Positions 13,967 to 38,556 of a stretch of DNA of 64,000 nt are shown here, one piece after another. A model generated the notes under the pieces. The model was not told where the DNA came from, did not search any database, and saw only the letters and a list, made by a program, of their open reading frames with translations. The stretch comes from a virus. The stretch spans positions 51,247 through 115,246 of IMG/VR virus record IMGVR_UViG_3300048694_001252; one strand, 5' to 3'. Positions within the stretch are counted from its first letter, which is position 1. Each line of letters begins with the position of its first letter. The position numbers and the translations under genes were made by a program.

Positions 13967-14040
13967 GCGCCCGAAGCTGATCGGATAGCCGGAGCCTCTA
14001 AAACTCCTGGTAGCGGGTTCGACTCCCGCCTGGCGCACCA
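13967..14040 (+). tRNA. Amber suppressor tRNA (anticodon CUA)
   Basis: Cloverleaf: acceptor GCGCCCG/CTGGCGC + A73 + encoded CCA; D stem GCTG/TAGC with GG in the loop; anticodon arm GGAGC-CTCTAAA-ACTCC with CTA at 13998-14000; T arm GCGGG-TTCGACT-CCCGC. Confidence 0.9.
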
Positions 14041-22343: not shown

Positions 22344-22349
22344 TATTTA
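22344..22349 (-). promoter_or_regulatory. Late promoter box TAAATA
   Basis: ccaTAAATAtccttataggatacggaaaatATG; overlaps the stop codon of the endonuclease gene. Confidence 0.65.
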
Positions 22350-23120
22350 TGGGCTGTACCTATCTCCCCGGCCACCACCGCGGCGCGCACAATGATCACC
22401 GTGCCGGTGATACCAGCCACGAGCAATATCGCGATCACAGTGCGGGCAATGTATCTTGACTCGTTTTTGGCCACGTTGCTTGGCTACTCTGCGTTCTACT
22501 ACTTCTGGGTCTACTTTACGCCCCAACATCGCTTTTCTGAGTTTTTGTTTTTGTTCATCACTCATTGGAATACCTTTGTTGTGGGCTTGTTGTTTGCCTT
22601 TTTTGGCTTCGCTTATCTTACGGCGAGTTTCCTCTGATACCGCTTTACCATAACGTCCATTTTTTTCTCCCTTGTGAGCTTCAGAGTTTTTGCGTCTATG
22701 ATCTTCTGTTGCTATTTTGCCCTTATTCTTTCCAACATTTGATTGTCTAATTTTTTCAATTTGTTCTTTAGACTTAGGTTTACCTTTGTGAAACTCACTG
22801 ATCTTACGACGACTCTCTTTAGTAGGTACAATATATCCCGCGACATTCTGATTGATCCAACGATCATCTTCTAGCACGCGGCAGCGCCGTAACACTCTGG
22901 TTTCCCATGCTACTGCTTGTTCTCGAGTTTCAAACACCCGGCGTATCTCTACATCAAAACTATCGCGGCCGGTCTCTTCAATCAACCGTTGTACTTTGGG
23001 ACTGCTGGTAAAGTATTGGTGCCAGAGATCTTGCTCTGGTGGTAATTTGTTGGCACTGCGTACCCCGTAATATACACGATTGGTAGGACGATGTCGGATT
23101 AGATATGTATAAGGTTTCAT
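22347..23120 (-). CDS. Free-standing Seg-like GIY-YIG homing endonuclease with NUMOD3 repeats
   Basis: N-terminal YTYLI...YYGVR...YFTSS...E...E...WIN. Repeats such as ESRRKISEFHKGK and EETRRKISEAKKGK. C-terminal CPHC. Confidence 0.75.
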   Translation of the reverse strand: MKPYTYLIRHRPTNRVYYGVRSANKLPPEQDLWHQYFTSSPKVQRLIEETGRDSFDVEIRRVFETREQAVAWETRVLRRCRVLEDDRWINQNVAGYIVPTKESRRKISEFHKGKPKSKEQIEKIRQSNVGKNKGKIATEDHRRKNSEAHKGEKNGRYGKAVSEETRRKISEAKKGKQQAHNKGIPMSDEQKQKLRKAMLGRKVDPEVVERRVAKQRGQKRVKIHCPHCDRDIARGWYHRHGDHCARRGGGRGDRYSP

Positions 23121-23125
23121 ATTGT

Positions 23126-29275: not shown

Positions 29276-32065
29276 TTAATGCATCGACGAGCGAGCTATC
29301 TTGGCCGTGATTTCCGCACTGGTTTCGTGTGTGCGTTTGATGTTTCTCAAGAGATCCAGCATTTCAATCTGATTGGGTTTGGGCTTGGCCAACTCGCTGG
29401 CCAGGTCTTTTATGGCCGTTTTGATATCAACCTTGACTGCATCGCGCAGATTTTGCTGCAATCGATCGGGGTTTGGCAGATCTCCCAGCTGCCGGATGAT
29501 CTCACCTACTTCACCTAGATCCACGGGAATATTACCGCCCTTGAGTGGTATCACAGCTTCAGCACCGGCCTCGCCCACGACACTGGGACCTAGAGCGATG
29601 CCTCCTCTGGCCAGTGCGGGTAGATCTTGCACAAACAGATCGTGTTCTTTTTGGCGTCTTTTTTGCAGAGTCGGATCTACCTTGCCACTGGCTTTGTTAT
29701 AGAGCAGCATGGCATCAGCAGTTTCTTGATTGATGCGTTTGCCTCGATTGGTCACGGTAGACAATACACCGTCACCAAGATTGTAGGCAAAGGATGTCAT
29801 GGCATCTATCTGGTTTTGACCCCACTCTCGATCTTTGCCGACCGCAACAACCTTGGCAACTAGATTACCTATCCAGGTTGTGAGTCGTTTGTATGCTTCT
29901 TCTTTGTCAATAGTTTTTTTGCCCGAGATTTCATCAGGATCTTCGGTCCTGGTACCATAACCAATGCTATATTGTGAATGATCTTTGTAGGCCTTGGCCC
30001 TGAATCCTTCAAATTGCATGATCATGTCAATACCTTGACTTGACACGTTTGAAATTGGTACCTTTATTGTTTTGGCCGTAGATGATTTTTTCTTGGGCTC
30101 TAGAGGTTCACCCATGGCCAGACCGGATGTTTGTTTGGGGTTAGCAGCCGCTGGAGCAGGTGTTGGTGCTGGCATAGTAGCCGCAGGTTTAGTAGCTGCC
30201 GGAGCAGGTGTTGGTTCTGGCATAGTGGCCGCCGGAGCCGGTGCTGCTGGAGCAGGTGTTGGTGCTGGCATAGTGGCCGCTGGAGCCGGTGCCGCCGGAG
30301 CAGGTGTTGGTGCTGGCATAGTGGCCGCAGGTTTAGTAGCTGCCGGAGCAGATGTTGCGGGAGCAGGTGTTGCCGCCGGAGCAGGTGTTGGTGCTGGCAT
30401 AGTGGCCGCAGTCTTGGGTGCAGCCTTTTGTTCTTGCTGTCGTTGAGCAGCATCCTCGGTGCGTTTTTCCTCGGCTCTCTTGTTCCTGAGATCAGCTTCT
30501 CTTTTTACGGCCTGATTCAATTCTTCTTTCTGTTGATCCTCACGCTGTTTCTTGGCTTCAGCATCTTGCTGTTTGGCCCGTTCTCGAGCAGCCTGCCCCT
30601 GATCCTGGGCCTGGGCCTTGGGTTCAAGCTCATCTTTTTGTCTCAATATCGTCTTGTTGAACCATTTGAGCGCTGTGGTAGCAGCCTCTAATCCCCAGGT
30701 CATGAGCCCAAACAGAGTACTCACAGGCCCGGCGCCGGCTCGTACAAATTCCTGCATGGCCAGGCTCAGTTCCAGTTGACTATTTCGTAGTTTGGCCTGT
30801 GCTTCGGTGGCAGGATCGGCCTGGCCACTCAGAGTTTTCTGTTGCTGTTTTACCAATTGCTGGTATTGCGCAGTAAGATCTTTGTTGGCCCGATTGCTGG
30901 CATTCACTACTTCATTGAGTGATCCAAAAGTTTCATTGAATGCCATGGATTGACCATACATGCCACCAAATCGATCCTTGGTCTTGGCCATGGCATCAAA
31001 GGCCTTTTGCATGGCATCGGTGGGGCTTTTCAATCCCTTGCTTGCAGCCATGAGATCATTGGCCGCATCAGCACCTATGGTCAATAGCAGTTTGCGAGCC
31101 GCGGGATCCTGGAGGTTGCCCGAAAACCAAGCTCTCAGGCCCTTGGCATACAAGGGTCCAGCAGAATTTTCCATGAGTGTGCTCATGGCCATCATGCTGC
31201 GAGCATCTTCTGAACGACCTTGGGCCTCGGCCTGATTTACAGCGGCCAAGAACTGTTCTTGAGTGAGCGCTTCGGCACGTTGCGTTTCTAATTCTTTGCG
31301 TGTGGCACCGGTCAATTGGGTCAGCACATTCATTTCTTGGATATACTCAGCTGCACTATGTGCCACCTGCTGATCTGTGCGGCGGGTCGTGGCACCCATG
31401 AGATTCTGCTGATTTATATAACCGGCCACACCCTCATTGAGGTCGTTCACGGTCATGCCCAGAGCCATATAACCTGTACGGTCTTTTTGCAGCTCTTTGC
31501 TGACCTGGGCAAATCGAGTTCGGCCTTCAGCTGCGGTACCACCAAACAGAGCCAGGCTACGACTATTGGCCGCTATCAGTTGAGCATAGCTCTGGAAATC
31601 TTTCATGACCAGACCCATGCTGGCCGCATCTTGGGCCGCACCGGTCATGCCATCTGCTGCTACTGCGCCCGATTTGCTGAGCGATTGGAACAGTTCAAAC
31701 TGTTTGTCCAGCATGGCGCCAACGGCACGAGTGTACTCCACAAAAGCCGTGCTGGTCTTGAGTATGATACCAGCCAATCGAGTGTGCGGGAACCTCAAGA
31801 GTATGCTGCCCACGCTGCTCATGGCCTTGCTGCCCTCGGCTAGAGCACCATCAAAGGCCTTGTATCCCTGTTCACCGCGATAGAGATCGCCCGTGAGCTG
31901 CTTGACACTGCGCAGCATGTGGGACAGGGCTTCGCGGCGCAGACGATTTATTTCTTTTTGGTTGGCTTCGGCCGCGGCCGCGGCCTGTTCGGCATCTCGC
32001 GCAGCCTGCTCTTTTTCTTGCTGAAGCTTCTGGATGGCATCCAGCAGTTCTTTATTGTCGGCCAT
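29276..32065 (-). CDS. Tape-measure-like protein with C-terminal GH24 (T4-lysozyme-like) domain
   Basis: Long Ala/Gln-rich helical region and a Pro/Ala linker, then QFEGFRAKAYKD...YSIGYG...QIDAMTSFAYNLG...LQKRRQKE, then ARGGIALGPSVVGEAGAEAVIPL. Confidence 0.75.
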   Translation of the reverse strand: MADNKELLDAIQKLQQEKEQAARDAEQAAAAAEANQKEINRLRREALSHMLRSVKQLTGDLYRGEQGYKAFDGALAEGSKAMSSVGSILLRFPHTRLAGIILKTSTAFVEYTRAVGAMLDKQFELFQSLSKSGAVAADGMTGAAQDAASMGLVMKDFQSYAQLIAANSRSLALFGGTAAEGRTRFAQVSKELQKDRTGYMALGMTVNDLNEGVAGYINQQNLMGATTRRTDQQVAHSAAEYIQEMNVLTQLTGATRKELETQRAEALTQEQFLAAVNQAEAQGRSEDARSMMAMSTLMENSAGPLYAKGLRAWFSGNLQDPAARKLLLTIGADAANDLMAASKGLKSPTDAMQKAFDAMAKTKDRFGGMYGQSMAFNETFGSLNEVVNASNRANKDLTAQYQQLVKQQQKTLSGQADPATEAQAKLRNSQLELSLAMQEFVRAGAGPVSTLFGLMTWGLEAATTALKWFNKTILRQKDELEPKAQAQDQGQAARERAKQQDAEAKKQREDQQKEELNQAVKREADLRNKRAEEKRTEDAAQRQQEQKAAPKTAATMPAPTPAPAATPAPATSAPAATKPAATMPAPTPAPAAPAPAATMPAPTPAPAAPAPAATMPEPTPAPAATKPAATMPAPTPAPAAANPKQTSGLAMGEPLEPKKKSSTAKTIKVPISNVSSQGIDMIMQFEGFRAKAYKDHSQYSIGYGTRTEDPDEISGKKTIDKEEAYKRLTTWIGNLVAKVVAVGKDREWGQNQIDAMTSFAYNLGDGVLSTVTNRGKRINQETADAMLLYNKASGKVDPTLQKRRQKEHDLFVQDLPALARGGIALGPSVVGEAGAEAVIPLKGGNIPVDLGEVGEIIRQLGDLPNPDRLQQNLRDAVKVDIKTAIKDLASELAKPKPNQIEMLDLLRNIKRTHETSAEITAKIARSSMH
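30148..30410 (-). repeat. Pro/Ala-rich tandem repeats (PAATMPAPTPAPAA)
   Basis: Several near-identical ggagcaggtgttggtgctggcatagtggccgc units. Confidence 0.85.
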
Positions 32066-32947: not shown

Positions 32948-33162
32948 TGCTGTCAGTTGGCGATATCGAAAAACAAATCACCAGCATGGAGCAAGAGGCG
33001 GCGGCAATCAGATCCAATTGCATGAAGATGGCCTGGCACATGCGCGGTGGCGCCAGTTACGAACACATACTGTTGATGAGCAGTCACGAACGCGAAGCCA
33101 TTGGCAATCTCATCAAGGAAAATATCGAAACCACAAACAAGACTCGATTGCCTTGGTTCTGA
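32947..33162 (+). CDS. Small gp51-like protein; possibly also the -1 frameshift extension of the upstream gene
   Basis: TGATG overlap. Sequence WHMRGGASYEHILLMSSHEREAI..LIKENIE. Confidence 0.65.
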   Translation: MLSVGDIEKQITSMEQEAAAIRSNCMKMAWHMRGGASYEHILLMSSHEREAIGNLIKENIETTNKTRLPWF

Positions 33163-33174
33163 CTGGTAATAGAG

Positions 33175-33592
33175 AGATCTCTTGCGAGATCTGTTGATTC
33201 GCTTGCGCTCATCAACTGTTTCCGAGCGGAGCGATTTTTAGGATCATCTAGATGGAGTGGTCACACTTGGCCCGCACAGGGCCAAGATTGATCTGCACAT
33301 CATCTGAGTATCGCAGTCACCTAGCGTTAGAGCATTACAGAGGCGGTTGTCCGGTACCTCGAGCTCCGTCTTATTACAACGGCGGCCTGCATCAAATACG
33401 CTAACATTCCATGCAGACGTGCACGATCACTCGTGCGTCATTGGGCCTTGATATCCTGTTCTAACAATCAAACCCCGGCGTTTTGGGATCCTCGTCCTGT
33501 GAAGGATAGTGATTGAGAGCTCCTGCGGCGGAGTCTTTGGTCCCGGTGATCCGATAGATCCCGTTGTCATCAGTGCACGAATTTGGCCTGCA
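33175..33592 (-). ncRNA. Candidate large structured RNA (~420 nt) downstream of the GIY-YIG gene
   Basis: Longest gene-free stretch in the window. Many hairpins, three with GNRA loops on the minus strand (GCAA, GCAA, GTGA), one with G.A mismatches, and a possible pseudoknot. Confidence 0.6.
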
Positions 33593-34033
33593 CTAGCCCT
33601 GACCGCTTAGTTTGCCTCGGATATGACTGCCATGCACACGTACCTGGATGTGGCCGTTGTAGTAGCTGTCACTCTCTAACACACGCTGACTAAATTGTTC
33701 TCTTGCTTCGATGTAGCTGCATTCTGCCCGGCTTTTGCAATAATAAAGTATTTCGCGCTGGAAGTTTTGGTTGCCTAGTTTTGCGATGTCTTGGAGCAGT
33801 TGGGGGCTAGACCCCCAATAGTCTCGCCAATCACTCTCGACTTGTGTGCGTATTTTGCGTTTTCGTTTGTTGCCGTTTTTGAATTTGACTGTGCGTTGCC
33901 TGGTCTTGCGAAATTGAGCTAGTTTTTTGCCTATGTACTTGCGCTGCGTGATGAGATTGGTTATTTCATATACAAAACCCGCACAATCTAGGGGCAGTTG
34001 TTCTACTGGGTTGCCTTGATATAGCCATGTCAT
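33593..34033 (-). CDS. Compact GIY-YIG family nuclease (146 aa)
   Basis: GFVYEITN...KYIGKK, YWGSS, FQREIL, E...E and YYN motifs, with a very basic insertion KTRQRTVKFKNGNKRKRKIR. Confidence 0.8.
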   Translation of the reverse strand: MTWLYQGNPVEQLPLDCAGFVYEITNLITQRKYIGKKLAQFRKTRQRTVKFKNGNKRKRKIRTQVESDWRDYWGSSPQLLQDIAKLGNQNFQREILYYCKSRAECSYIEAREQFSQRVLESDSYYNGHIQVRVHGSHIRGKLSGQG

Positions 34034-34062
34034 AATGACATATAATTATGACATTTGTGAAA

Positions 34063-34545
34063 TTATATGTTTTTTTCATAGACCCACCCTTGATTGTTGG
34101 TTTCCACGCTGTAGATCCAGGAAAATGTAGGCCATGTCCATTCCAGCCACCACTCACCGTTGAAACCTAGATAATTGCTGTGTATGATAGGTTCTACAGA
34201 GATACCACGTTCCTGCGCGTATTGATAGTAACTCGCGGTATACTCGGGTCGATAACGTGTGTGTCGCATGAAACTGTCGTAAAAAAACTTTTCGATTCCT
34301 ATGCGTTTTATTATAACAGCCTTGTCTCGACCATCGCGATTGTCGCTCTCCCGTTTGTTCAAAAAGAACACACTGAGTCTGTTGTGATCTAGAGCAGGCA
34401 GGGTCCAGGTAAATTCACTTTCGTTATCACACAGACCTTGATGTAACACACGGTCGTTGAATAGTATCTGTACGGCAGGAGGATCCTGCCATAACACTGG
34501 TTGTAAAACCAAGTCCAAAATCACATCACGTTCCGCAATAGCCAT
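34063..34545 (-). CDS. Hypothetical protein (about 160 aa; likely start MAIAERD)
   Basis: Its start overlaps the end of the radical SAM gene. C-terminal YLGFNGEWWLEW..P.FSWI. Confidence 0.6.
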   Translation of the reverse strand: MAIAERDVILDLVLQPVLWQDPPAVQILFNDRVLHQGLCDNESEFTWTLPALDHNRLSVFFLNKRESDNRDGRDKAVIIKRIGIEKFFYDSFMRHTRYRPEYTASYYQYAQERGISVEPIIHSNYLGFNGEWWLEWTWPTFSWIYSVETNNQGWVYEKNI

Positions 34546-35845
34546 ATTGAGATAGTAGATTGTAATGAACCAGCGAATAATCGCGCAAGTTAATAGACTT
34601 GAGACGATCCCATTCATCTAGACGTTTGGCACACGTGGTCAGTAAATCATGAACATCTGCGGGTTCTGGTTGTTCAAGATATCTAATAATACTCTGACAC
34701 TCGTTGCGTATACTGATGTTGATCCTACCGGGATCTTTTTGATTATTGAGTTGGGCCGAGTCTGTGCCCGGTACCCGATCTAGAATTGTTTGGATGTGTT
34801 TGATGGTCTCGCTCTTGATATGCTGTGGTAGTAACCGACCCACTTGCCAGGGTGGATTGATCATCAAACTGTTATCTATGGGAATGCCATGACTCCAAGC
34901 CCACTCGATCAAGTTGCCATATGTAGGTAAACTCAGGAGTCCGGGCACAGTTCTAATAGCCAGACTGGTGTTTTGTGGACGTTGATCTATAAGCACTTGG
35001 ATATTTCGCAATATCTGCGATATATTGCCGCCTTGGCGTATATAATCACCGATGGTATCTACGCTTTCGATACTGATTCCAATTTCAGTCCGTTTGAACT
35101 GACCGAGACGCTTAAAATATCTAGTATAGTCCAAGCTACCATTGATGGTGAAACTGAAGTTCACATCATGAGCATAGTTCCGGTCAATGAAGTAATCAAG
35201 CAACCAATCAAACCTGGGCATCAAACCCACTTCACCACCAATCACGTGTATGACCTTGATTTGATGTGCCGAACTGTCAAGAAAATCCACAAAGTTTTTC
35301 CATCCTGTGGCATCATCGGACCAGTGCGTAAAATCACTGTCTGGCGGCAACCAATTCAGCTGACGATGTTCCTGTTGTAGTTTGCTGCTGAAGTAAGGAT
35401 TACACATCCTACAGGCAAAGTTACAGACATCACCAAGATTGATATGCAAACTATGTGGTGTAGTTTCGGTCAGCCCTTGATTGAGTTCGCTGAATCTAAA
35501 TCGGTGATAGTTGGGACTTTGAACATAACTTCTTTCAAATGAATCGTGGAATATGACAGATTTCATGTTTTCTTTGCGCCGTATACTCTCATACCCAACA
35601 GCATCTTTGGTCTGACACATACGACACATGGGATCTGGGGTATCACCCAGCTTGATCATGCGAGCCTGGCGCATACGTTCTCCATTCCAGTAATCCTGCA
35701 TGGTAATGCGCTTGATGTTCCAGATCTTGCCCAGGGCGGTGCCTCGAATTTTGTCATTCTGGCAACCACAGAGGTCAAAACTACCATCATGATTGATGTT
35801 GAGTTCGTACCAGGGAACACCACAAAATATTTTACTGTTGGGCAT
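34526..35845 (-). CDS. Radical SAM protein with N-terminal Cys-rich (twitch/SPASM-like) region
   Basis: CNFACRMC (CxxxCxxC) and IGGE motifs; N-terminal FCGVPW...LCGC...CRMC. Confidence 0.85.
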   Translation of the reverse strand: MPNSKIFCGVPWYELNINHDGSFDLCGCQNDKIRGTALGKIWNIKRITMQDYWNGERMRQARMIKLGDTPDPMCRMCQTKDAVGYESIRRKENMKSVIFHDSFERSYVQSPNYHRFRFSELNQGLTETTPHSLHINLGDVCNFACRMCNPYFSSKLQQEHRQLNWLPPDSDFTHWSDDATGWKNFVDFLDSSAHQIKVIHVIGGEVGLMPRFDWLLDYFIDRNYAHDVNFSFTINGSLDYTRYFKRLGQFKRTEIGISIESVDTIGDYIRQGGNISQILRNIQVLIDQRPQNTSLAIRTVPGLLSLPTYGNLIEWAWSHGIPIDNSLMINPPWQVGRLLPQHIKSETIKHIQTILDRVPGTDSAQLNNQKDPGRINISIRNECQSIIRYLEQPEPADVHDLLTTCAKRLDEWDRLKSINLRDYSLVHYNLLSQYGYCGT

Positions 35846-36809
35846 TTTTACACTTGAGTTGACAGATCTCTACGGGATTGTGTTCCAGTCCATCCTGAAA
35901 CTGCTGCCATAGCTGATGGTCGTTCATGATATCAAAAAACGAACGACGGCGTATGCTCAAAAGATCACGATGTTGTCTTACGAATTCATTGTATTGATAA
36001 TCACTGCTGAACCATGGGCAAGGTGAGACCACACCGTTGACTCCAATAAACAAATCTTTTTTGTAGTTCAAACAACGTGCCCAGGCATGCGGAAACCGTG
36101 GTTCTGACACAGCGATAGCTGCATACTCACAGGGATTGATCACATCTATGTTGGCGTCATAGATTAGATTTTGAGATACCAGATCCGGTCTTGGCTTGAG
36201 ACGGTCCAAACCATTTACACTATAGCTATGATCAAATTTGCTACTTTTCACAGTCTGGAACCAGTTACAACCTAGATCTCGAGCTAGATCGCGTATAGAA
36301 TCTATATGATCTTGATTGAAGGCAAAGTAAATGGTGCTCCATTTGATTAGGCAATCACTGCTGCGTCTCAGCGCACGAATACCTTCCTGGATGGTCGCAA
36401 AGTCACTGTTCACACGATACTGGTTGTTGCTGTGATCGTCCCAACCATCCACGCTGAATGTGACCATGTCGTTGCGATCTAACATGCGACCCAGTTGACT
36501 CCACCACTGGGCTTTTTTGTAACTGCCATTGGTGATAGTGCGGATACGAACATTGCTGTTTTGCTTGATGTAATTGATGATATCTAAAAAATCACTGGCA
36601 TAGATGGGGTCACCTATGTCACCGCAGAACAGTATGTGTTTGATTCGTGCTAGTGTCTCGGGGGGGAATCCTCTTTGAAAATCTCCAAGACTGATTTCCT
36701 GATTGATGCGATCGAGATCAAGCTCGGTCCTGGGGCAACGTGGACATCTAAGCACACATTTGCTACTGAGCTCAATGTGAATACTATCAGTGTTAAACAA
36801 CGTCAACAT
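35832..36809 (-). CDS. Radical SAM protein (likely start MLTLFN at 36809)
   Basis: IELSSKCVLRCPRC, CGDIGDP, TNGS and FSVDG motifs, plus C-terminal Cys residues (SPCPW, ICQLKC). Confidence 0.85.
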   Translation of the reverse strand: MLTLFNTDSIHIELSSKCVLRCPRCPRTELDLDRINQEISLGDFQRGFPPETLARIKHILFCGDIGDPIYASDFLDIINYIKQNSNVRIRTITNGSYKKAQWWSQLGRMLDRNDMVTFSVDGWDDHSNNQYRVNSDFATIQEGIRALRRSSDCLIKWSTIYFAFNQDHIDSIRDLARDLGCNWFQTVKSSKFDHSYSVNGLDRLKPRPDLVSQNLIYDANIDVINPCEYAAIAVSEPRFPHAWARCLNYKKDLFIGVNGVVSPCPWFSSDYQYNEFVRQHRDLLSIRRRSFFDIMNDHQLWQQFQDGLEHNPVEICQLKCKNAQQ

Positions 36810-38556
36810 CGGTATTATAGTTAGTAAACCCGCCCTCTTTGACCACACGCAGGATATTCTCCACACGTCCAGCCAGCTCATCCCGGTGACTGACCAGCCA
36901 GATGCTCTTGTGGCGCTCGCGGCTCATCTTTTTCAGTAGAGCCAGACTGTTTTCTACACCTTGTGTATCCATGCCGGAATCTACCAGTTCATCTATGAAT
37001 AGCACGTTGATGGTGCTGTAGAGGCTTTCCCATACATCCCGGAACGCCCAGCTCATGCTCAAGATCAAGCGATTGCGTTCACCACGCGACAGATTATCAA
37101 AGTCCAGGTCACGACCCAGTTCAGTGATAGTGACCGAAAGATCGTTTTGGAATATGACCTGATGCGGCAATCCTATGCGGTCCAGGTACCAGGTCAGTCT
37201 AGAGTTGAGATAGCTGAGATTCTGTTCTATGATCTTTTTACGGATAAAGCTGTCTTTGTTGGTAAGCAGCTTCAAGAGAAAGTCCTGATGCTCGTGCAGG
37301 CGAGTCAAAGTGTTGAGAGCGTCATAGGTCACGATCTGGAGAGCCTGATTCTGCATGTCCGAGATCTGATCAGCATAGGGATCAATTTCGATCTGGCGCA
37401 CAGCCAATTCACGGCGCAATTGTTCCAGGCTGTTGCGATGATTCAGGGCCTGCTCAAGATCATCGTAGAACATGGCGGGTGGCTTGCCCAATTCACCCAG
37501 CTCTCGCAACGTTGCCAGATGTTCCTGTTCCTGTGTATCTGCGGCCAACCATTGCAGGGCCGCTTCCTGCAGATGAGTCTGTTTTTCCTTGAGTATCTTG
37601 TCTTGCTTGTCGTCATGTATGTTCTGACCGCAGGCATAGCATTGGTGTTTGCTCAATTGATCGATTTCCCGTTCCAGCTGGCTCTGTTGCTTTTCCAGTT
37701 TGGTTTTGTCTGTGCGTATAGTGCGGAGATACTGGTTGCACTGATCGATCTGTTTCTTGACTTCGTTATAGCGATCCAGATCACGATGCGCCTGTATCTC
37801 CTGCTCAATGTCGATGTGTTCCAGTTCCTGTATCGAAGTCAGGAAAGCTGCACAGTCCTCGCGTTGCTTTTTACCCCAAAGAGTCTGGCGTTTGCGCAGA
37901 CTTTCAATCTGTTCTTCGATACGTCGATTGGCCTCCTGCACGGCCCGGATACGCATTTCTTCCTGAGTGATGCTGTCGCGGGTTTCACGATTGAGTTCTT
38001 TCACGCGATCAGCCCGCTCACTCAGTAGCGTGATGCCTAGCAGTTGTTCGATTATGGCGCGCTGGTCATTGGCCTTGAGAGCTAGGAAAGGTTCAGTATA
38101 GGTATTGAGTGCCAATACATGACGGAACATGTCATGGCTGAGACCCAGGATTCGTTCTATTGCGGTTTGGGTTTCGCGGCTATCGCCCTGACTGTTGTCC
38201 TGTGAGGCCTGCTCTTCCTGATTCACATAGAATTTGAGCACGTTGGGCTTGCGACCGCGCTCGATACGATAGTCCACACCGTTCACGGCAAATTCCAGGC
38301 TGACCAACATGTTTTTGGCATTGGTCTTGTTGATGAGATTGTCTCGGCGTATGTTAGTAAGAGCCTGACCATACAGTGCATAGCTCAGAGCATTGATGAT
38401 CGTGGTCTTGCCAGTACCGTTCCGGCTGCCATCACCGCCCAGGTCTAGATTTTCACCCAGGACCAAGGTAAGGTCCCGGCGATCAAAATTGATGGCTTGG
38501 GTAGCATTGCCCACGCTCATGAAGTTGCGTACTGTGAGATCTCGTATGTGTATCAT
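36793..38556 (-). CDS. gp46: Recombination ATPase, gp46/SbcC/Rad50-like
   Basis: Walker A NGTGKTT, zinc hook CYAC, signature LSRGE, Walker B LFIDE, and VSH. Confidence 0.93.
   Translation of the reverse strand: MIHIRDLTVRNFMSVGNATQAINFDRRDLTLVLGENLDLGGDGSRNGTGKTTIINALSYALYGQALTNIRRDNLINKTNAKNMLVSLEFAVNGVDYRIERGRKPNVLKFYVNQEEQASQDNSQGDSRETQTAIERILGLSHDMFRHVLALNTYTEPFLALKANDQRAIIEQLLGITLLSERADRVKELNRETRDSITQEEMRIRAVQEANRRIEEQIESLRKRQTLWGKKQREDCAAFLTSIQELEHIDIEQEIQAHRDLDRYNEVKKQIDQCNQYLRTIRTDKTKLEKQQSQLEREIDQLSKHQCYACGQNIHDDKQDKILKEKQTHLQEAALQWLAADTQEQEHLATLRELGELGKPPAMFYDDLEQALNHRNSLEQLRRELAVRQIEIDPYADQISDMQNQALQIVTYDALNTLTRLHEHQDFLLKLLTNKDSFIRKKIIEQNLSYLNSRLTWYLDRIGLPHQVIFQNDLSVTITELGRDLDFDNLSRGERNRLILSMSWAFRDVWESLYSTINVLFIDELVDSGMDTQGVENSLALLKKMSRERHKSIWLVSHRDELAGRVENILRVVKEGGFTNYNTDVDVV

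What the first reader, a model, noticed from the sequence alone, without database searches (positions are those of the whole stretch)
33175..34033. Compact GIY-YIG nuclease followed directly by a ~420-nt structured RNA: possible ribonucleoprotein or RNA-guided system
Seen: the only long gene-free stretch in this dense window starts right at the GIY-YIG stop. Minus-strand hairpins include AGATCTC-GCAA-GAGATCT (33175-33192), GTTGAT-GA-GC-GCAA-GC-GA-ATCAAC with tandem G.A pairs (33193-33216), CTTGGCCC-N5-GGGCCAAG (33266-33286), GAGG..CGG-ACAA-CCG-CCTC (33340-33360) and GCACGA-GTGA-TCGTGC (33421-33436). The loop of the CTGCAT/ATGCAG stem (33387-33416) carries 33398-33403, which is complementary to 33322-33327 (a possible pseudoknot). 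AGATGAT occurs twice, 56 nt apart, flanking one hairpin. Three GNRA loops on the gene's own strand argue for an RNA. The protein has only the catalytic domain plus a very basic arm and lacks the NUMOD/HTH DNA-binding modules of homing endonucleases (contrast 22347-23120). Inference: the RNA may be a partner or guide, by analogy to IscB/omegaRNA and TnpB/reRNA. I do not recognise it as a named family.
Basis: partly seen in the sequence, partly recalled or inferred. Interest (0 to 1): 0.75.

Follow-up and report, generated by a model that had tools for sequence, protein, structure and literature searches.

The report
Full-length Polynucleobacter-1 phage RNA behind nuclease
The gene-free stretch behind a small nuclease gene of this uncultured freshwater giant phage encodes a real, about 440-base, doubly knotted non-coding RNA whose first third was catalogued in 2010 (Polynucleobacter-1); it always follows a small nuclease gene, but nothing here shows that it guides that nuclease, and its job is still unknown.

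Summary
Observation confirmed; the guide-RNA reading is not supported. Window 33175-33616 (minus strand) is a ~440-nt structured RNA. Its 5' third is Rfam RF01718, Polynucleobacter-1 (91 bits, cut-off 37). The rest is not in Rfam, but it is conserved and covaries: 94% of cells paired, 59 of 84 pairs compensatory, two pseudoknots.

New here:
- In about 208 distinct RNA loci with enough upstream DNA, a small nuclease gene always lies upstream on the same strand. It is the compact GIY-YIG in about 205 and a non-homologous PD-(D/E)XK nuclease, annotated as a Holliday-junction resolvase, in 3-4, in the same slot. None lacks a nuclease.
- The neighbours of the pair vary (16 upstream and 30 downstream families).
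- The compact GIY-YIG family also occurs in 459 cultured phage records; no cultured phage record matches the RNA, and the three records inspected have no room for it. One homolog is PSSM2_218, the gene the 2010 paper linked to the motif.
- Two complete genomes carry this GIY-YIG as their only recognisable resolvase-type nuclease.
- There is no guide-like segment.
- The two 7-nt "twin boxes" change together, like with like (10 words). They track no other RNA column, no GIY-YIG residue and no nearby complement.

This scan has met the same RNA in at least 55 other genomes. Function unknown.

The parts
33593..34033 (-). Compact stand-alone GIY-YIG nuclease gene (146 aa). It has the catalytic domain with a long basic beta-hairpin (about residues 40-66) and a His/Arg-rich tail. 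Its TAG stop lies inside the RNA's first pseudoknot strand (GGCUAG).
   Evidence: Pfam PF19835 SegE_GIY-YIG, E 1.8e-32. phrog_447. AlphaFold2 pLDDT 86.7. The best structural matches are GIY-YIG domains: I-TevI Z 7.8, UvrC 5.5, T4 EndoII 5.1. GIY, YIG, E109 and N126 are invariant in 26 relatives.
33175..33616 (-). Full-length structured RNA, about 440 nt: a 5' leader overlapping the last codons of the ORF, a 5' domain, a central pseudoknotted core, a twin-box domain and two 3' hairpins.
   Evidence: Conserved over its whole length in relatives. Covariation statistics. The leader ...CAAAnUAAGCAGU... is kept even where another ORF is inserted upstream.
33462..33598 (-). 5' domain, which is Rfam RF01718 Polynucleobacter-1 (model positions 1-141). 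It includes pseudoknot 1: GGCU 33595-33598 pairs with GGCC 33585-33588 in the loop of hairpin P1.
   Evidence: cmscan 91.2 bits against a gathering score of 37, E 6e-20. PK1 pairs GC 21 / AU 15 and GC 63 / AU 27.
33387..33436 (-). Two hairpins: GCACGA-GUGA-UCGUGC (33421-33436) and CUGCAU...AUGCAG (33387-33416). The loop UAGCGU (33398-33403) of the second is the 5' strand of pseudoknot 2.
   Evidence: Helices 8-10; all 12 pairs of helix 10 have changes on both sides.
33322..33327 (-). ACGCUA, the 3' strand of pseudoknot 2.
   Evidence: Helix 11: 6 of 7 pairs have compensatory change and 95.8% of cells pair. Confirmed.
33340..33360 (-). Nearly invariant core hairpin GAGGUACCGGACAACCGCCUC.
   Evidence: Invariant columns. 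Its 17-mer alone retrieved more than 119 viral and more than 120 metagenome contigs.
33299..33305 (-). Twin box 1 (AGAUGAU), preceded by GUGAC-N7-ACUC.
33266..33286 (-). Hairpin CUUGGCCC-N5-GGGCCAAG between the two boxes.
   Evidence: Helix 15. One of its pairs also shows a third column that copies one side.
33243..33249 (-). Twin box 2 (AGAUGAU), preceded by GUGAC-N6-AUCU.
   Evidence: It is identical to box 1 in 164 of 186 distinct loci, across 10 different words. Per position in 126 sequences the two boxes read G,G 82 / A,A 44 with 0 discordant; A,A 64 / G,G 60 with 2 discordant; U,U 90 / A,A 23 / G,G 8 with 5 discordant.
33193..33216 (-). Hairpin with conserved GAGCG-NNA-GCGAA (tandem G.A) inside a covarying stem.
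   Evidence: Helices 16-17; alignment.
33175..33192 (-). Terminal hairpin with a CGYAG-type loop and no U-run. Conservation ends here.
   Evidence: Helix 18: 6 of 6 pairs compensatory.
33138..33155 (-). Terminator-like hairpin plus T-run on the minus strand, 20 nt past the RNA and inside the 3' end of the convergent 72-aa ORF. It is a possible end of the transcript.
   Evidence: This is a weak consensus match: 1 found against 1.4 expected.

Best explanation
What it is (shown). This is a full-length member of the Polynucleobacter-1 RNA family. It is a single-copy, ~440-nt RNA with two pseudoknots. It is read from the minus strand as the last element of the transcription unit that ends with the phage's small stand-alone nuclease gene.

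How it most likely works (inferred).
- The nuclease is a housekeeping DNA-branch or junction-cutting enzyme of this T4-like clade. It is neither a homing endonuclease nor an RNA-guided enzyme.
- The RNA is a self-contained folded RNA, of the scaffold or ribozyme class, made at the same time and place as the nuclease. It is not a guide.
- Its two identical 7-nt boxes act as a pair. Either they touch each other like with like, or a two-fold symmetric reader binds both. That would clamp the 3' domain.

The biochemical activity of the RNA is not known.
For: RNA identity and reality:
- Rfam RF01718 at 91.2 bits.
- Conservation over the whole length.
- 94.1% of cells paired, 59 of 84 compensatory pairs, 0 of 500 shuffles as good.
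- Both pseudoknots covary.
- One copy per genome.

Nuclease as a housekeeping enzyme:
- Homologs of 38-52% identity are in 459 cultured phage records, mostly Kyanoviridae, at similar relative genome positions.
- No cultured phage record matches the RNA, and the three homolog loci inspected have no room for a large RNA behind the gene.
- Two 99-100% complete 346-kb genomes hold exactly one such gene and no Endo VII, RusA, RuvC or PDDEXK_15.
- In contigs without it, a PF24608 nuclease (phrog_244, annotated as a Holliday-junction resolvase) sits in the same slot: radical-SAM gene, nuclease, RNA, convergent baseplate gene.

RNA not dependent on the GIY-YIG protein:
- The same RNA follows the PD-(D/E)XK gene. 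RF01718 scores 39.2 bits in L237, and L438 matches the profile over its full length.
- Other ORFs are tolerated between nuclease and RNA in 29 of about 208 loci.
- No protein column tracks the boxes; the highest mutual information is 0.3 of about 1 bit.

Twin boxes:
- They covary by identity at the same index only. No third RNA column takes part.
- Both boxes differ between RNAs that are 97.8% identical elsewhere.
- Spacing is 47-61 nt in every frame, so they are not coding.
Against: - The pair stays together while its neighbours fall into 16 unrelated upstream and 30 unrelated downstream families. No RNA locus lacks a nuclease upstream. This is stronger linkage than synteny alone would predict and fits a direct functional tie.
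- The RNA-linked GIY-YIG proteins have a basic hairpin 6-11 residues longer and an invariant His/Arg tail that RNA-less homologs lack or have only in part. These could be RNA-binding additions.
- No transcript data could be obtained.
- The resolvase role is inferred from absence of other families, position and annotation, not shown.
- Like-with-like pairing of seven bases is rare in known RNA structures.
Confidence: 0.45

Rival explanations
1. The nuclease and the RNA form a working pair without guide function. The RNA binds, holds back, localises or times a toxic structure-specific nuclease, or it acts in cis on the nuclease message. Both kinds of junction-cutting nuclease are expected to be dimers, so the twin boxes could be the two seats of a dimer.
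For: - Linkage holds in both directions: 76 of 76 informative GIY-YIG loci have the RNA, and 0 of about 208 RNA loci lack a nuclease upstream.
- The flanks are highly variable.
- The slot is kept when the nuclease family is swapped.
- The stop codon of the ORF lies in or within about 15 nt of pseudoknot 1, so translating the ORF and folding the RNA compete.
- The longer basic arm and His/Arg tail are specific to the RNA-linked clade.
Against: - Two unrelated folds would both have to recognise the same RNA.
- No protein residue covaries with the boxes.
- 14% of loci have another gene in between.
- Homologs work without any such RNA in cultured phages.
Confidence: 0.28
2. One reading: an RNA-guided nuclease. 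The RNA supplies target recognition to a GIY-YIG domain that has no DNA-binding module, as in IscB/omegaRNA or TnpB/reRNA, or in bridge RNAs with two specificity loops.
For: - The RNA overlaps the 3' end of the nuclease ORF, as reRNA does.
- The protein has no NUMOD or HTH module.
- HEARO, from the same 2010 survey, turned out to be the IscB guide (my own knowledge).
- The twin boxes are short, fast-changing words.
Against: - There is no long variable guide segment, and the 3' end is conserved hairpins.
- The boxes are 7 nt with 3-4 variable letters.
- Neither the box nor its complement sits at any fixed place within +/-1.5 kb, and neither is enriched in the genome.
- The nuclease can be exchanged for a PD-(D/E)XK fold.
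- The compact protein family is widespread without the RNA.
- No transposon ends were seen, and the module sits in one syntenic neighbourhood.
Confidence: 0.05
3. The RNA gene is a conserved target beside which selfish nuclease genes settle. The compact GIY-YIG, the PD-(D/E)XK gene and the full-length GIY-YIG/NUMOD gene are free-standing homing endonucleases that cut RNA-gene alleles lacking them. Their cutting drives the turnover of the flanks.
For: - Three nuclease gene types lie directly upstream of the RNA's 5' end. One is a bona fide-looking GIY-YIG with NUMOD-like repeats in L044 and L233.
- The flanks are hypervariable.
- Nuclease genes mark the boundaries of genetic exchange in phages (PMC10055350; title and abstract only).
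Against: - The compact gene is not sporadic. It is present in every informative relative, single-copy, and a positionally conserved gene in cultured cyanophages.
- It has no DNA-binding domain.
- GIY-YIG and PD-(D/E)XK are mutually exclusive, and the two complete genomes searched have no other resolvase. This fits replacement of an essential gene.
- No RNA allele without a nuclease was found.
Confidence: 0.1
4. It is only a 3' untranslated structure that ends and stabilises the operon transcript at a point of convergent transcription.
For: - It lies at the end of the minus-strand unit, facing the plus-strand baseplate genes.
- It has two terminal hairpins and a terminator-like site just beyond.
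Against: - 440 nt with two pseudoknots, invariant unpaired stretches and co-changing boxes is far more than a terminator needs.
- The final hairpin has no U-run.
- In about a quarter of loci the next gene lies on the same strand.
Confidence: 0.07
5. The stretch acts as DNA, for example as an origin, iterons or a recombination site whose two identical core words must match.
For: Identical short direct repeats that may vary in sequence but must stay the same are also what recombination core sites show (my own knowledge). The boxes behave this way.
Against: - G-U pairs are invariant on one strand only, and compensatory changes run through 18 helices.
- 47-61 bp is too short for DNA looping between the boxes.
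- No recombinase gene is linked.
Confidence: 0.02

Closest known systems
Polynucleobacter-1 RNA motif (Rfam RF01718; Weinberg et al. 2010, Genome Biol 11:R31, PMC2864571)
   Same: The 5' 137 nt match the whole model at 91 bits. The paper already noted that most examples lie downstream of a gene family with possible homology to PSSM2_218. I show that PSSM2_218 is a 37%-identical homolog of this GIY-YIG. The authors' raw alignment already carries a 'tail' and a 'tailpknot'.
   Different: The Rfam model stops at 141 positions. The core hairpin, the twin boxes and the 3' hairpins (about 300 nt) are not modelled there. The paper found none in purified phages and gave no function. The upstream gene was not recognised as a GIY-YIG nuclease.
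HEARO / omegaRNA with IscB, and reRNA with TnpB
   Same: A large structured RNA next to or overlapping a small nuclease gene, first seen by the same kind of comparative survey.
   Different: Those RNAs carry a guide of about 16-20 nt at one end, sit in IS200/605 transposons and bind one nuclease family. Here there is no guide segment and no transposon ends, and the nuclease family can be swapped.
Seg-type free-standing GIY-YIG homing endonucleases of T4 (SegA-G) and I-TevI
   Same: The same catalytic fold and the Seg-type inserted hairpin.
   Different: There is no C-terminal DNA-binding domain. The gene is not sporadic. It is single-copy and positionally conserved.
Large bacterial and phage ncRNAs of unknown function (GOLLD, ROOL, OLE, raiA)
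   Same: Several hundred nucleotides, many helices, pseudoknots, conserved unpaired stretches, and a frequent phage setting (my own knowledge).
   Different: No Rfam match to any of them at E up to 5 on this stretch. Like-with-like twin boxes are not a described feature of those RNAs, as far as I know.
Holliday-junction resolvases of phages (T4 Endo VII, RusA, Hjc-like PD-(D/E)XK)
   Same: A PF24608/phrog_244 gene, annotated as a resolvase, replaces the GIY-YIG in the same slot. Two complete genomes with the GIY-YIG have no other resolvase family.
   Different: No GIY-YIG phage resolvase is known to me. The activity is untested.

Membership tests
Polynucleobacter-1 RNA (RF01718) | Covariance-model score above the curated gathering score over the full model | tested here: met
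   91.2 bits against 37, model positions 1-141 of 141, E 6e-20.
Polynucleobacter-1 RNA (RF01718) | Consensus helices kept by compensatory change in relatives | tested here: met
   Helices 1-7: 94-100% of cells paired (87% in the single-pair helix 7), and 21 of 30 pairs changed on both sides.
Polynucleobacter-1 RNA (RF01718) | Lies downstream of a gene of the PSSM2_218 / GOS11034 family | tested here: met
   The upstream ORF is 37% identical to PSSM2_218, E 2e-20.
GIY-YIG nuclease superfamily | GIY and YIG strands, catalytic Glu and Asn, and the fold | tested here: met
   PF19835 at 1.8e-32. V21-Y22, Y33-I34-G35, E109 and N126 are invariant. I-TevI catalytic domain Z 7.8, rmsd 2.8 A over 82 residues.
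Free-standing homing endonuclease (Seg type) | A DNA-binding module (NUMOD, HTH or zinc finger) after the catalytic domain | tested here: not met
   The Pfam domain covers residues 3-129 of 146 and nothing else matches. The tail of about 17 residues has low confidence.
Free-standing homing endonuclease (Seg type) | Sporadic presence among close relatives, with alleles that lack the gene | tested here: not met
   The nuclease is present in front of every informative RNA locus. There is one copy in each complete genome. Homologs are in 459 cultured phage records at similar relative positions.
RNA-guided nuclease (IscB/TnpB-like) | A hypervariable guide segment of about 16 nt or more next to a conserved scaffold | tested here: not met
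   The variable stretches are 2-12 nt, 6 nt and an A-rich spacer. Both ends of the RNA are conserved structure.
RNA-guided nuclease (IscB/TnpB-like) | A target matching the variable RNA letters at the element's border or elsewhere | tested here: inconclusive
   Neither the box nor its complement sits at a fixed place within +/-1.5 kb in 118 loci. There is no enrichment in the 115-kb record. Whole genomes of relatives were not scanned.
RNA-guided nuclease (IscB/TnpB-like) | One cognate nuclease family bound to the RNA | tested here: not met
   The same RNA follows a PD-(D/E)XK gene in L237, L221, L283 and L438. Binding itself cannot be tested with these tools.
Group I / group II introns, RNase P, tmRNA, known ribozymes | A match to the family's covariance model | tested here: not met
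   cmscan of 33000-34150 at E up to 5 returns only RF01718. ARAGORN finds no tmRNA. The flanking ORFs are not halves of one gene.
Holliday-junction resolvase (for the nuclease) | Cleavage of four-way DNA junctions | not testable with these tools
   Indirect evidence only: mutual exclusion with PF24608/phrog_244 in the same slot, and no Endo VII, RusA or RuvC in two complete genomes.

The most novel reading that the evidence does not exclude
A modular nuclease-RNA system in which the folded RNA is the specificity or control subunit and the nuclease is an exchangeable cutting module (GIY-YIG or PD-(D/E)XK). The two identical boxes would read two copies of one short site, on DNA or RNA. This would be a kind of RNA-directed cutting or recombination unlike CRISPR, OMEGA or bridge RNAs.
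Probability: 0.06. Interest if true: 0.9.

Novelty: new member of a known kind. Interest (0 to 1): 0.58.

Why it matters
- Large, complex-fold RNAs with no known job are rare. Past ones (HEARO, OLE, ROOL/GOLLD) led to new biology.
- This RNA is widespread in uncultured freshwater giant T4-like phages. It matched more than 119 viral contigs and more than 120 metagenome contigs with one exact 17- or 21-mer. It has sat in Rfam since 2010 as a 141-nt orphan.
- The full RNA is three times longer. It carries an unusual signature, two words that must stay identical while changing quickly. It is tied to a nuclease slot that tolerates two unrelated folds.
- Either reading can be tested. If the tie is functional, this is a new kind of nuclease-RNA partnership. 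If it is not, it is still a candidate new ribozyme or scaffold RNA. Separately, the compact GIY-YIG may be the missing junction resolvase of cyanophage-like T4 relatives.

Tried and rejected
- blastn of the RNA against 50,697 cultured phage records: no match.
- Close relatives of the flanking baseplate gene by single protein: none. An alignment query then worked.
- Pattern scan of bacterial genomes: the first 80 hits were all chance matches with no RNA and no GIY-YIG. The Polynucleobacter chromosome copy could therefore not be examined.
- Coding or ribosome-hopping reading of the boxes. The words look like a sense codon followed by UGA or UAA. Rejected because the spacing of 47-61 nt falls in all three frames, there are stops upstream, and the Polynucleobacter lineage uses AGCGAAA.
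- Box 1 pairing with AUCU in front of box 2: rejected, because ACAUGAA variants keep AUCU.
- Antiparallel box-to-box pairing: no covariation between mirrored positions.
- The linker as partner of the boxes: its length of 2-12 nt rules it out.
- C/D-box, CsrA-site and anticodon-loop likenesses: each fails on the variant words.
- T4 late promoter TATAAATA near the RNA: none.
- Foldseek against the PDB gave only weak rows, with I-TevI at probability 0.94. VIA-align gave the GIY-YIG matches.
- TAG recoding, prompted by the suppressor tRNA: TAG ends 16 of 52 long ORFs.
Full report
**The observation.** All the hairpins, the loop-to-tail complementarity and the two AGATGAT words are in the sequence at the stated places on the minus strand. 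The ORF 33593-34033(-) is a GIY-YIG catalytic domain and nothing more: PF19835 covers residues 3-129 of 146. The 438 nt behind it fold better than shuffles, z = -3.4.

**It has a name.** The match covers the full model at 91.2 bits against a cut-off of 37. Nothing else in Rfam 15 matches 33000-34150 at E up to 5.
- The motif comes from Weinberg et al. 2010.
- Their supplement says most examples lie downstream of genes of family GOS11034, 'with possible homology to PSSM2_218' of cyanophage P-SSM2, and that none was seen in a purified phage.
- PSSM2_218 is a 145-aa protein 37% identical to the window's GIY-YIG, E 2e-20. So the gene-RNA linkage was in print in 2010, although the gene was not recognised as a nuclease.
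- Their raw alignment also carries a 'tail' and a 'tailpknot', which is part of what lies 3' of the Rfam model.

**Full extent and structure.**
- The window is part of a 115-kb virus record estimated at 33% complete, which implies a genome of about 350 kb.
- 80 IMG/VR loci encode 62-75% identical proteins. The whole 430-nt spacer, not just the Rfam part, is 65-79% identical in them.
- A 39-sequence alignment (A1) gives an RNAalifold structure with 45 of 74 pairs compensated.
- I added both pseudoknots and the outer stem of the GA hairpin. With these, 94.1% of cells pair, against 79.4% in shuffles and 36-41% when partners are slid. 59 of 84 pairs change on both sides, and 0 of 500 shuffles do as well.
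Pseudoknot 1 joins GGCU at the very start with GGCC in the first hairpin loop.
- G-U pairs that never vary fix the strand.
- A short leader (...CAAAnUAAGCAGU...) in front of the Rfam start is kept even where a different ORF precedes the RNA. The RNA therefore begins inside the last codons of the nuclease ORF. In the window, the TAG stop is part of pseudoknot 1.

**Linkage.** I tested it in both directions.
- Protein to RNA: 76 of the 80 loci chosen by protein have the RNA. The other four end less than 230 nt after the gene.
- RNA to protein, first sample: I searched with the invariant 17-mer of the core hairpin, which says nothing about the gene, and added loci found through the neighbouring baseplate gene. 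Of 141 distinct RNA loci with enough upstream DNA, 119 have the compact GIY-YIG directly upstream, 20 have it with one ORF in between, 2 have a PD-(D/E)XK gene instead, and none has no nuclease.
- RNA to protein, second sample: an independent set of metagenome contigs gave 57, 9, 1 and 0.
- Copy number: the RNA is single-copy per genome.
- Flanks: among the 119 adjacent pairs, the next ORF upstream falls into 16 unrelated families and the next ORF downstream into 30. The broad neighbourhood is still syntenic: baseplate gp26-like gene, a 72-aa ORF, then the convergent RNA and nuclease.
- The pair is therefore the stable unit in a plastic region.

**The nuclease.**
- AlphaFold2 (pLDDT 86.7) gives a GIY-YIG fold with a long inserted beta-hairpin. 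The best solved matches are I-TevI (Z 7.8), a GIY-YIG restriction enzyme, UvrC and T4 EndoII. The catalytic residues are invariant.
- Homologs of 38-52% identity occur in 459 cultured phage records, mostly T4-like cyanophages, at similar relative genome positions. The three inspected are 143-146 aa.
- In Melnitz, S-SRM01 and P-SSM2 the gene is followed by 148 nt, 87 nt and an overlapping ORF respectively. There is no room for this RNA, and blastn finds the RNA in no cultured phage.
- The compact build is therefore the family norm, not a loss that an RNA must make good.
- Some relatives lack the gene altogether: records G051, G052 and G055, plus metagenome contig L438, which has the other nuclease directly in front of the RNA. 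There a 171-173-aa PF24608 PD-(D/E)XK protein occupies the same slot. It is phrog_244, 'RusA-like Holliday junction resolvase', and its homologs in other giant phages are annotated as resolvases. The gene order is radical-SAM gene, nuclease, RNA, convergent baseplate gene.
- The RNA behind the PD-(D/E)XK gene is ordinary. RF01718 scores 39.2 bits in L237. L438 matches the profile over its full length and has intact twin boxes.
- Two 99-100% complete genomes have exactly one compact GIY-YIG and no Endo VII, RusA, RuvC or PF24608. The PF24608 records searched with the Pfam model (G051, G055) have no SegE-type GIY-YIG.
- I read this as non-orthologous replacement of one essential DNA-branch nuclease. 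That is an inference, not a test.

**The site between nuclease and RNA.** It accepts other genes. One is a full-length GIY-YIG with NUMOD-like repeats (L044, L233). Others are two SGNH-like ORFs and several ORFs with no family.

**Twin boxes.**
- The two 7-nt words sit in two repeated units, GUGAC-N6/7-A(CUC|UCU)-word, on either side of a hairpin.
- In 126 distinct sequences the three commonly variable letters agree between the boxes almost without exception: G,G 82 / A,A 44 with 0 discordant; A,A 64 / G,G 60 with 2 discordant; U,U 90 / A,A 23 / G,G 8 with 5 discordant.
- Ten words occur. One is ACAUGAA, where a normally fixed G is C in both boxes. The Polynucleobacter lineage uses AGCGAAA in both.
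- RNAs 97.8% identical elsewhere differ in both boxes.
- Each variable column covaries only with the same index in the other box. No third RNA column takes part and no mirrored position does.
- The boxes track no GIY-YIG residue. They have no complement or copy at any fixed place within 1.5 kb and no excess in the genome.
- Spacing is 47-61 nt in all frames.
- This pattern fits a like-with-like contact between the two words, or a reader that must see two equal sites. I cannot tell which.

**Weighing the readings.**
- The guide reading fails on three defining features: a guide segment, one cognate nuclease, and a matching target nearby.
- A looser partnership is still alive. The pair is kept amid changing neighbours. 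The slot survives a change of nuclease fold. The ORF's stop lies in the RNA's first pseudoknot. The RNA-linked proteins have a basic hairpin 6-11 residues longer and an invariant His/Arg tail that RNA-less homologs lack or have only in part.
- Against the partnership: two unrelated folds, inserted ORFs, and no protein-box covariation.
- The homing-target reading explains why three nuclease gene types sit at one site. It does not fit a single-copy, always-present, positionally conserved gene without a DNA-binding domain.
- A plain terminator or a DNA element does not fit the covariation.

**Earlier work of this scan.** It has met the same RNA in at least 55 other genomes. Those notes reached the same anatomy and no function. 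I had seen the twin words before reading them.

- the swap to a PD-(D/E)XK nuclease in the same slot;
- mutual exclusion of the two nuclease families and the absence of other resolvases;
- the PSSM2_218 identification;
- counts of neighbour turnover;
- the negative protein-box test;
- the kept 5' leader.

Noticed in passing
window 13967-14040 (+): A tRNA gene with anticodon CUA, an amber suppressor (ARAGORN labels it tRNA-Pyl; Rfam tRNA 45 bits). TAG still ends 16 of 52 ORFs of 150 aa or more, so there is no sign of wholesale TAG recoding. The GIY-YIG ORF of this finding ends in TAG.
   Followed up: partly
window 22347-23120 (-), Pfam match at 22842-23123: A second, longer SegE-type GIY-YIG gene (open frame of 261 aa; PF19835, E 3.7e-10).
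   Followed up: partly
window 34526-35845 (-) and 35832-36881 (-): Two adjacent radical-SAM/SPASM proteins directly upstream of the nuclease unit. Radical-SAM genes also precede the PD-(D/E)XK nuclease in L283 and L438. ORF 34063-34617 (184 aa, no family) overlaps the first by 92 nt.
   Followed up: no
window 29276-32065 (-): A 929-aa protein with a long Pro/Ala/Thr-rich tandem repeat (PAPTPAPAA...). It looks like a tail tape-measure or hub protein, with what looks by eye like a lysozyme-type domain near the C-terminus (not searched). The repeat produces several spurious overlapping ORFs.
   Followed up: no
L044:2403-3107 and L233:7198-7821: A full-length GIY-YIG gene with NUMOD-like repeats inserted exactly between the compact GIY-YIG gene and the RNA. 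A remnant of the compact gene's last codons is kept next to the RNA.
   Followed up: partly
L028:3426-4451, L014:3440-4453, L079:3432-4250: ORFs of 272-341 aa with a GCS(I/F)xxGxG motif (SGNH/GDSL-like by eye, no Pfam match), inserted between nuclease and RNA in some relatives.
   Followed up: no
alignment of 126 RNAs; window RNA positions about 238, 328 and 342 (hairpin 33266-33286): One base pair of the hairpin between the boxes (U-A 50 / C-G 31 / A-U 16) has a third column, about 90 nt upstream, that copies its 3' partner (A,A 43 / G,G 34 / U,U 22). This could be a base triple or an alternative pairing.
   Followed up: no
window about 33217-33245 (-), alignment A1 columns 481-535: A semi-conserved UCGCUUCGCU in the A-rich spacer is complementary to the AGCGAA strand of the following GA hairpin. 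This could be an alternative pairing or switch.
   Followed up: no
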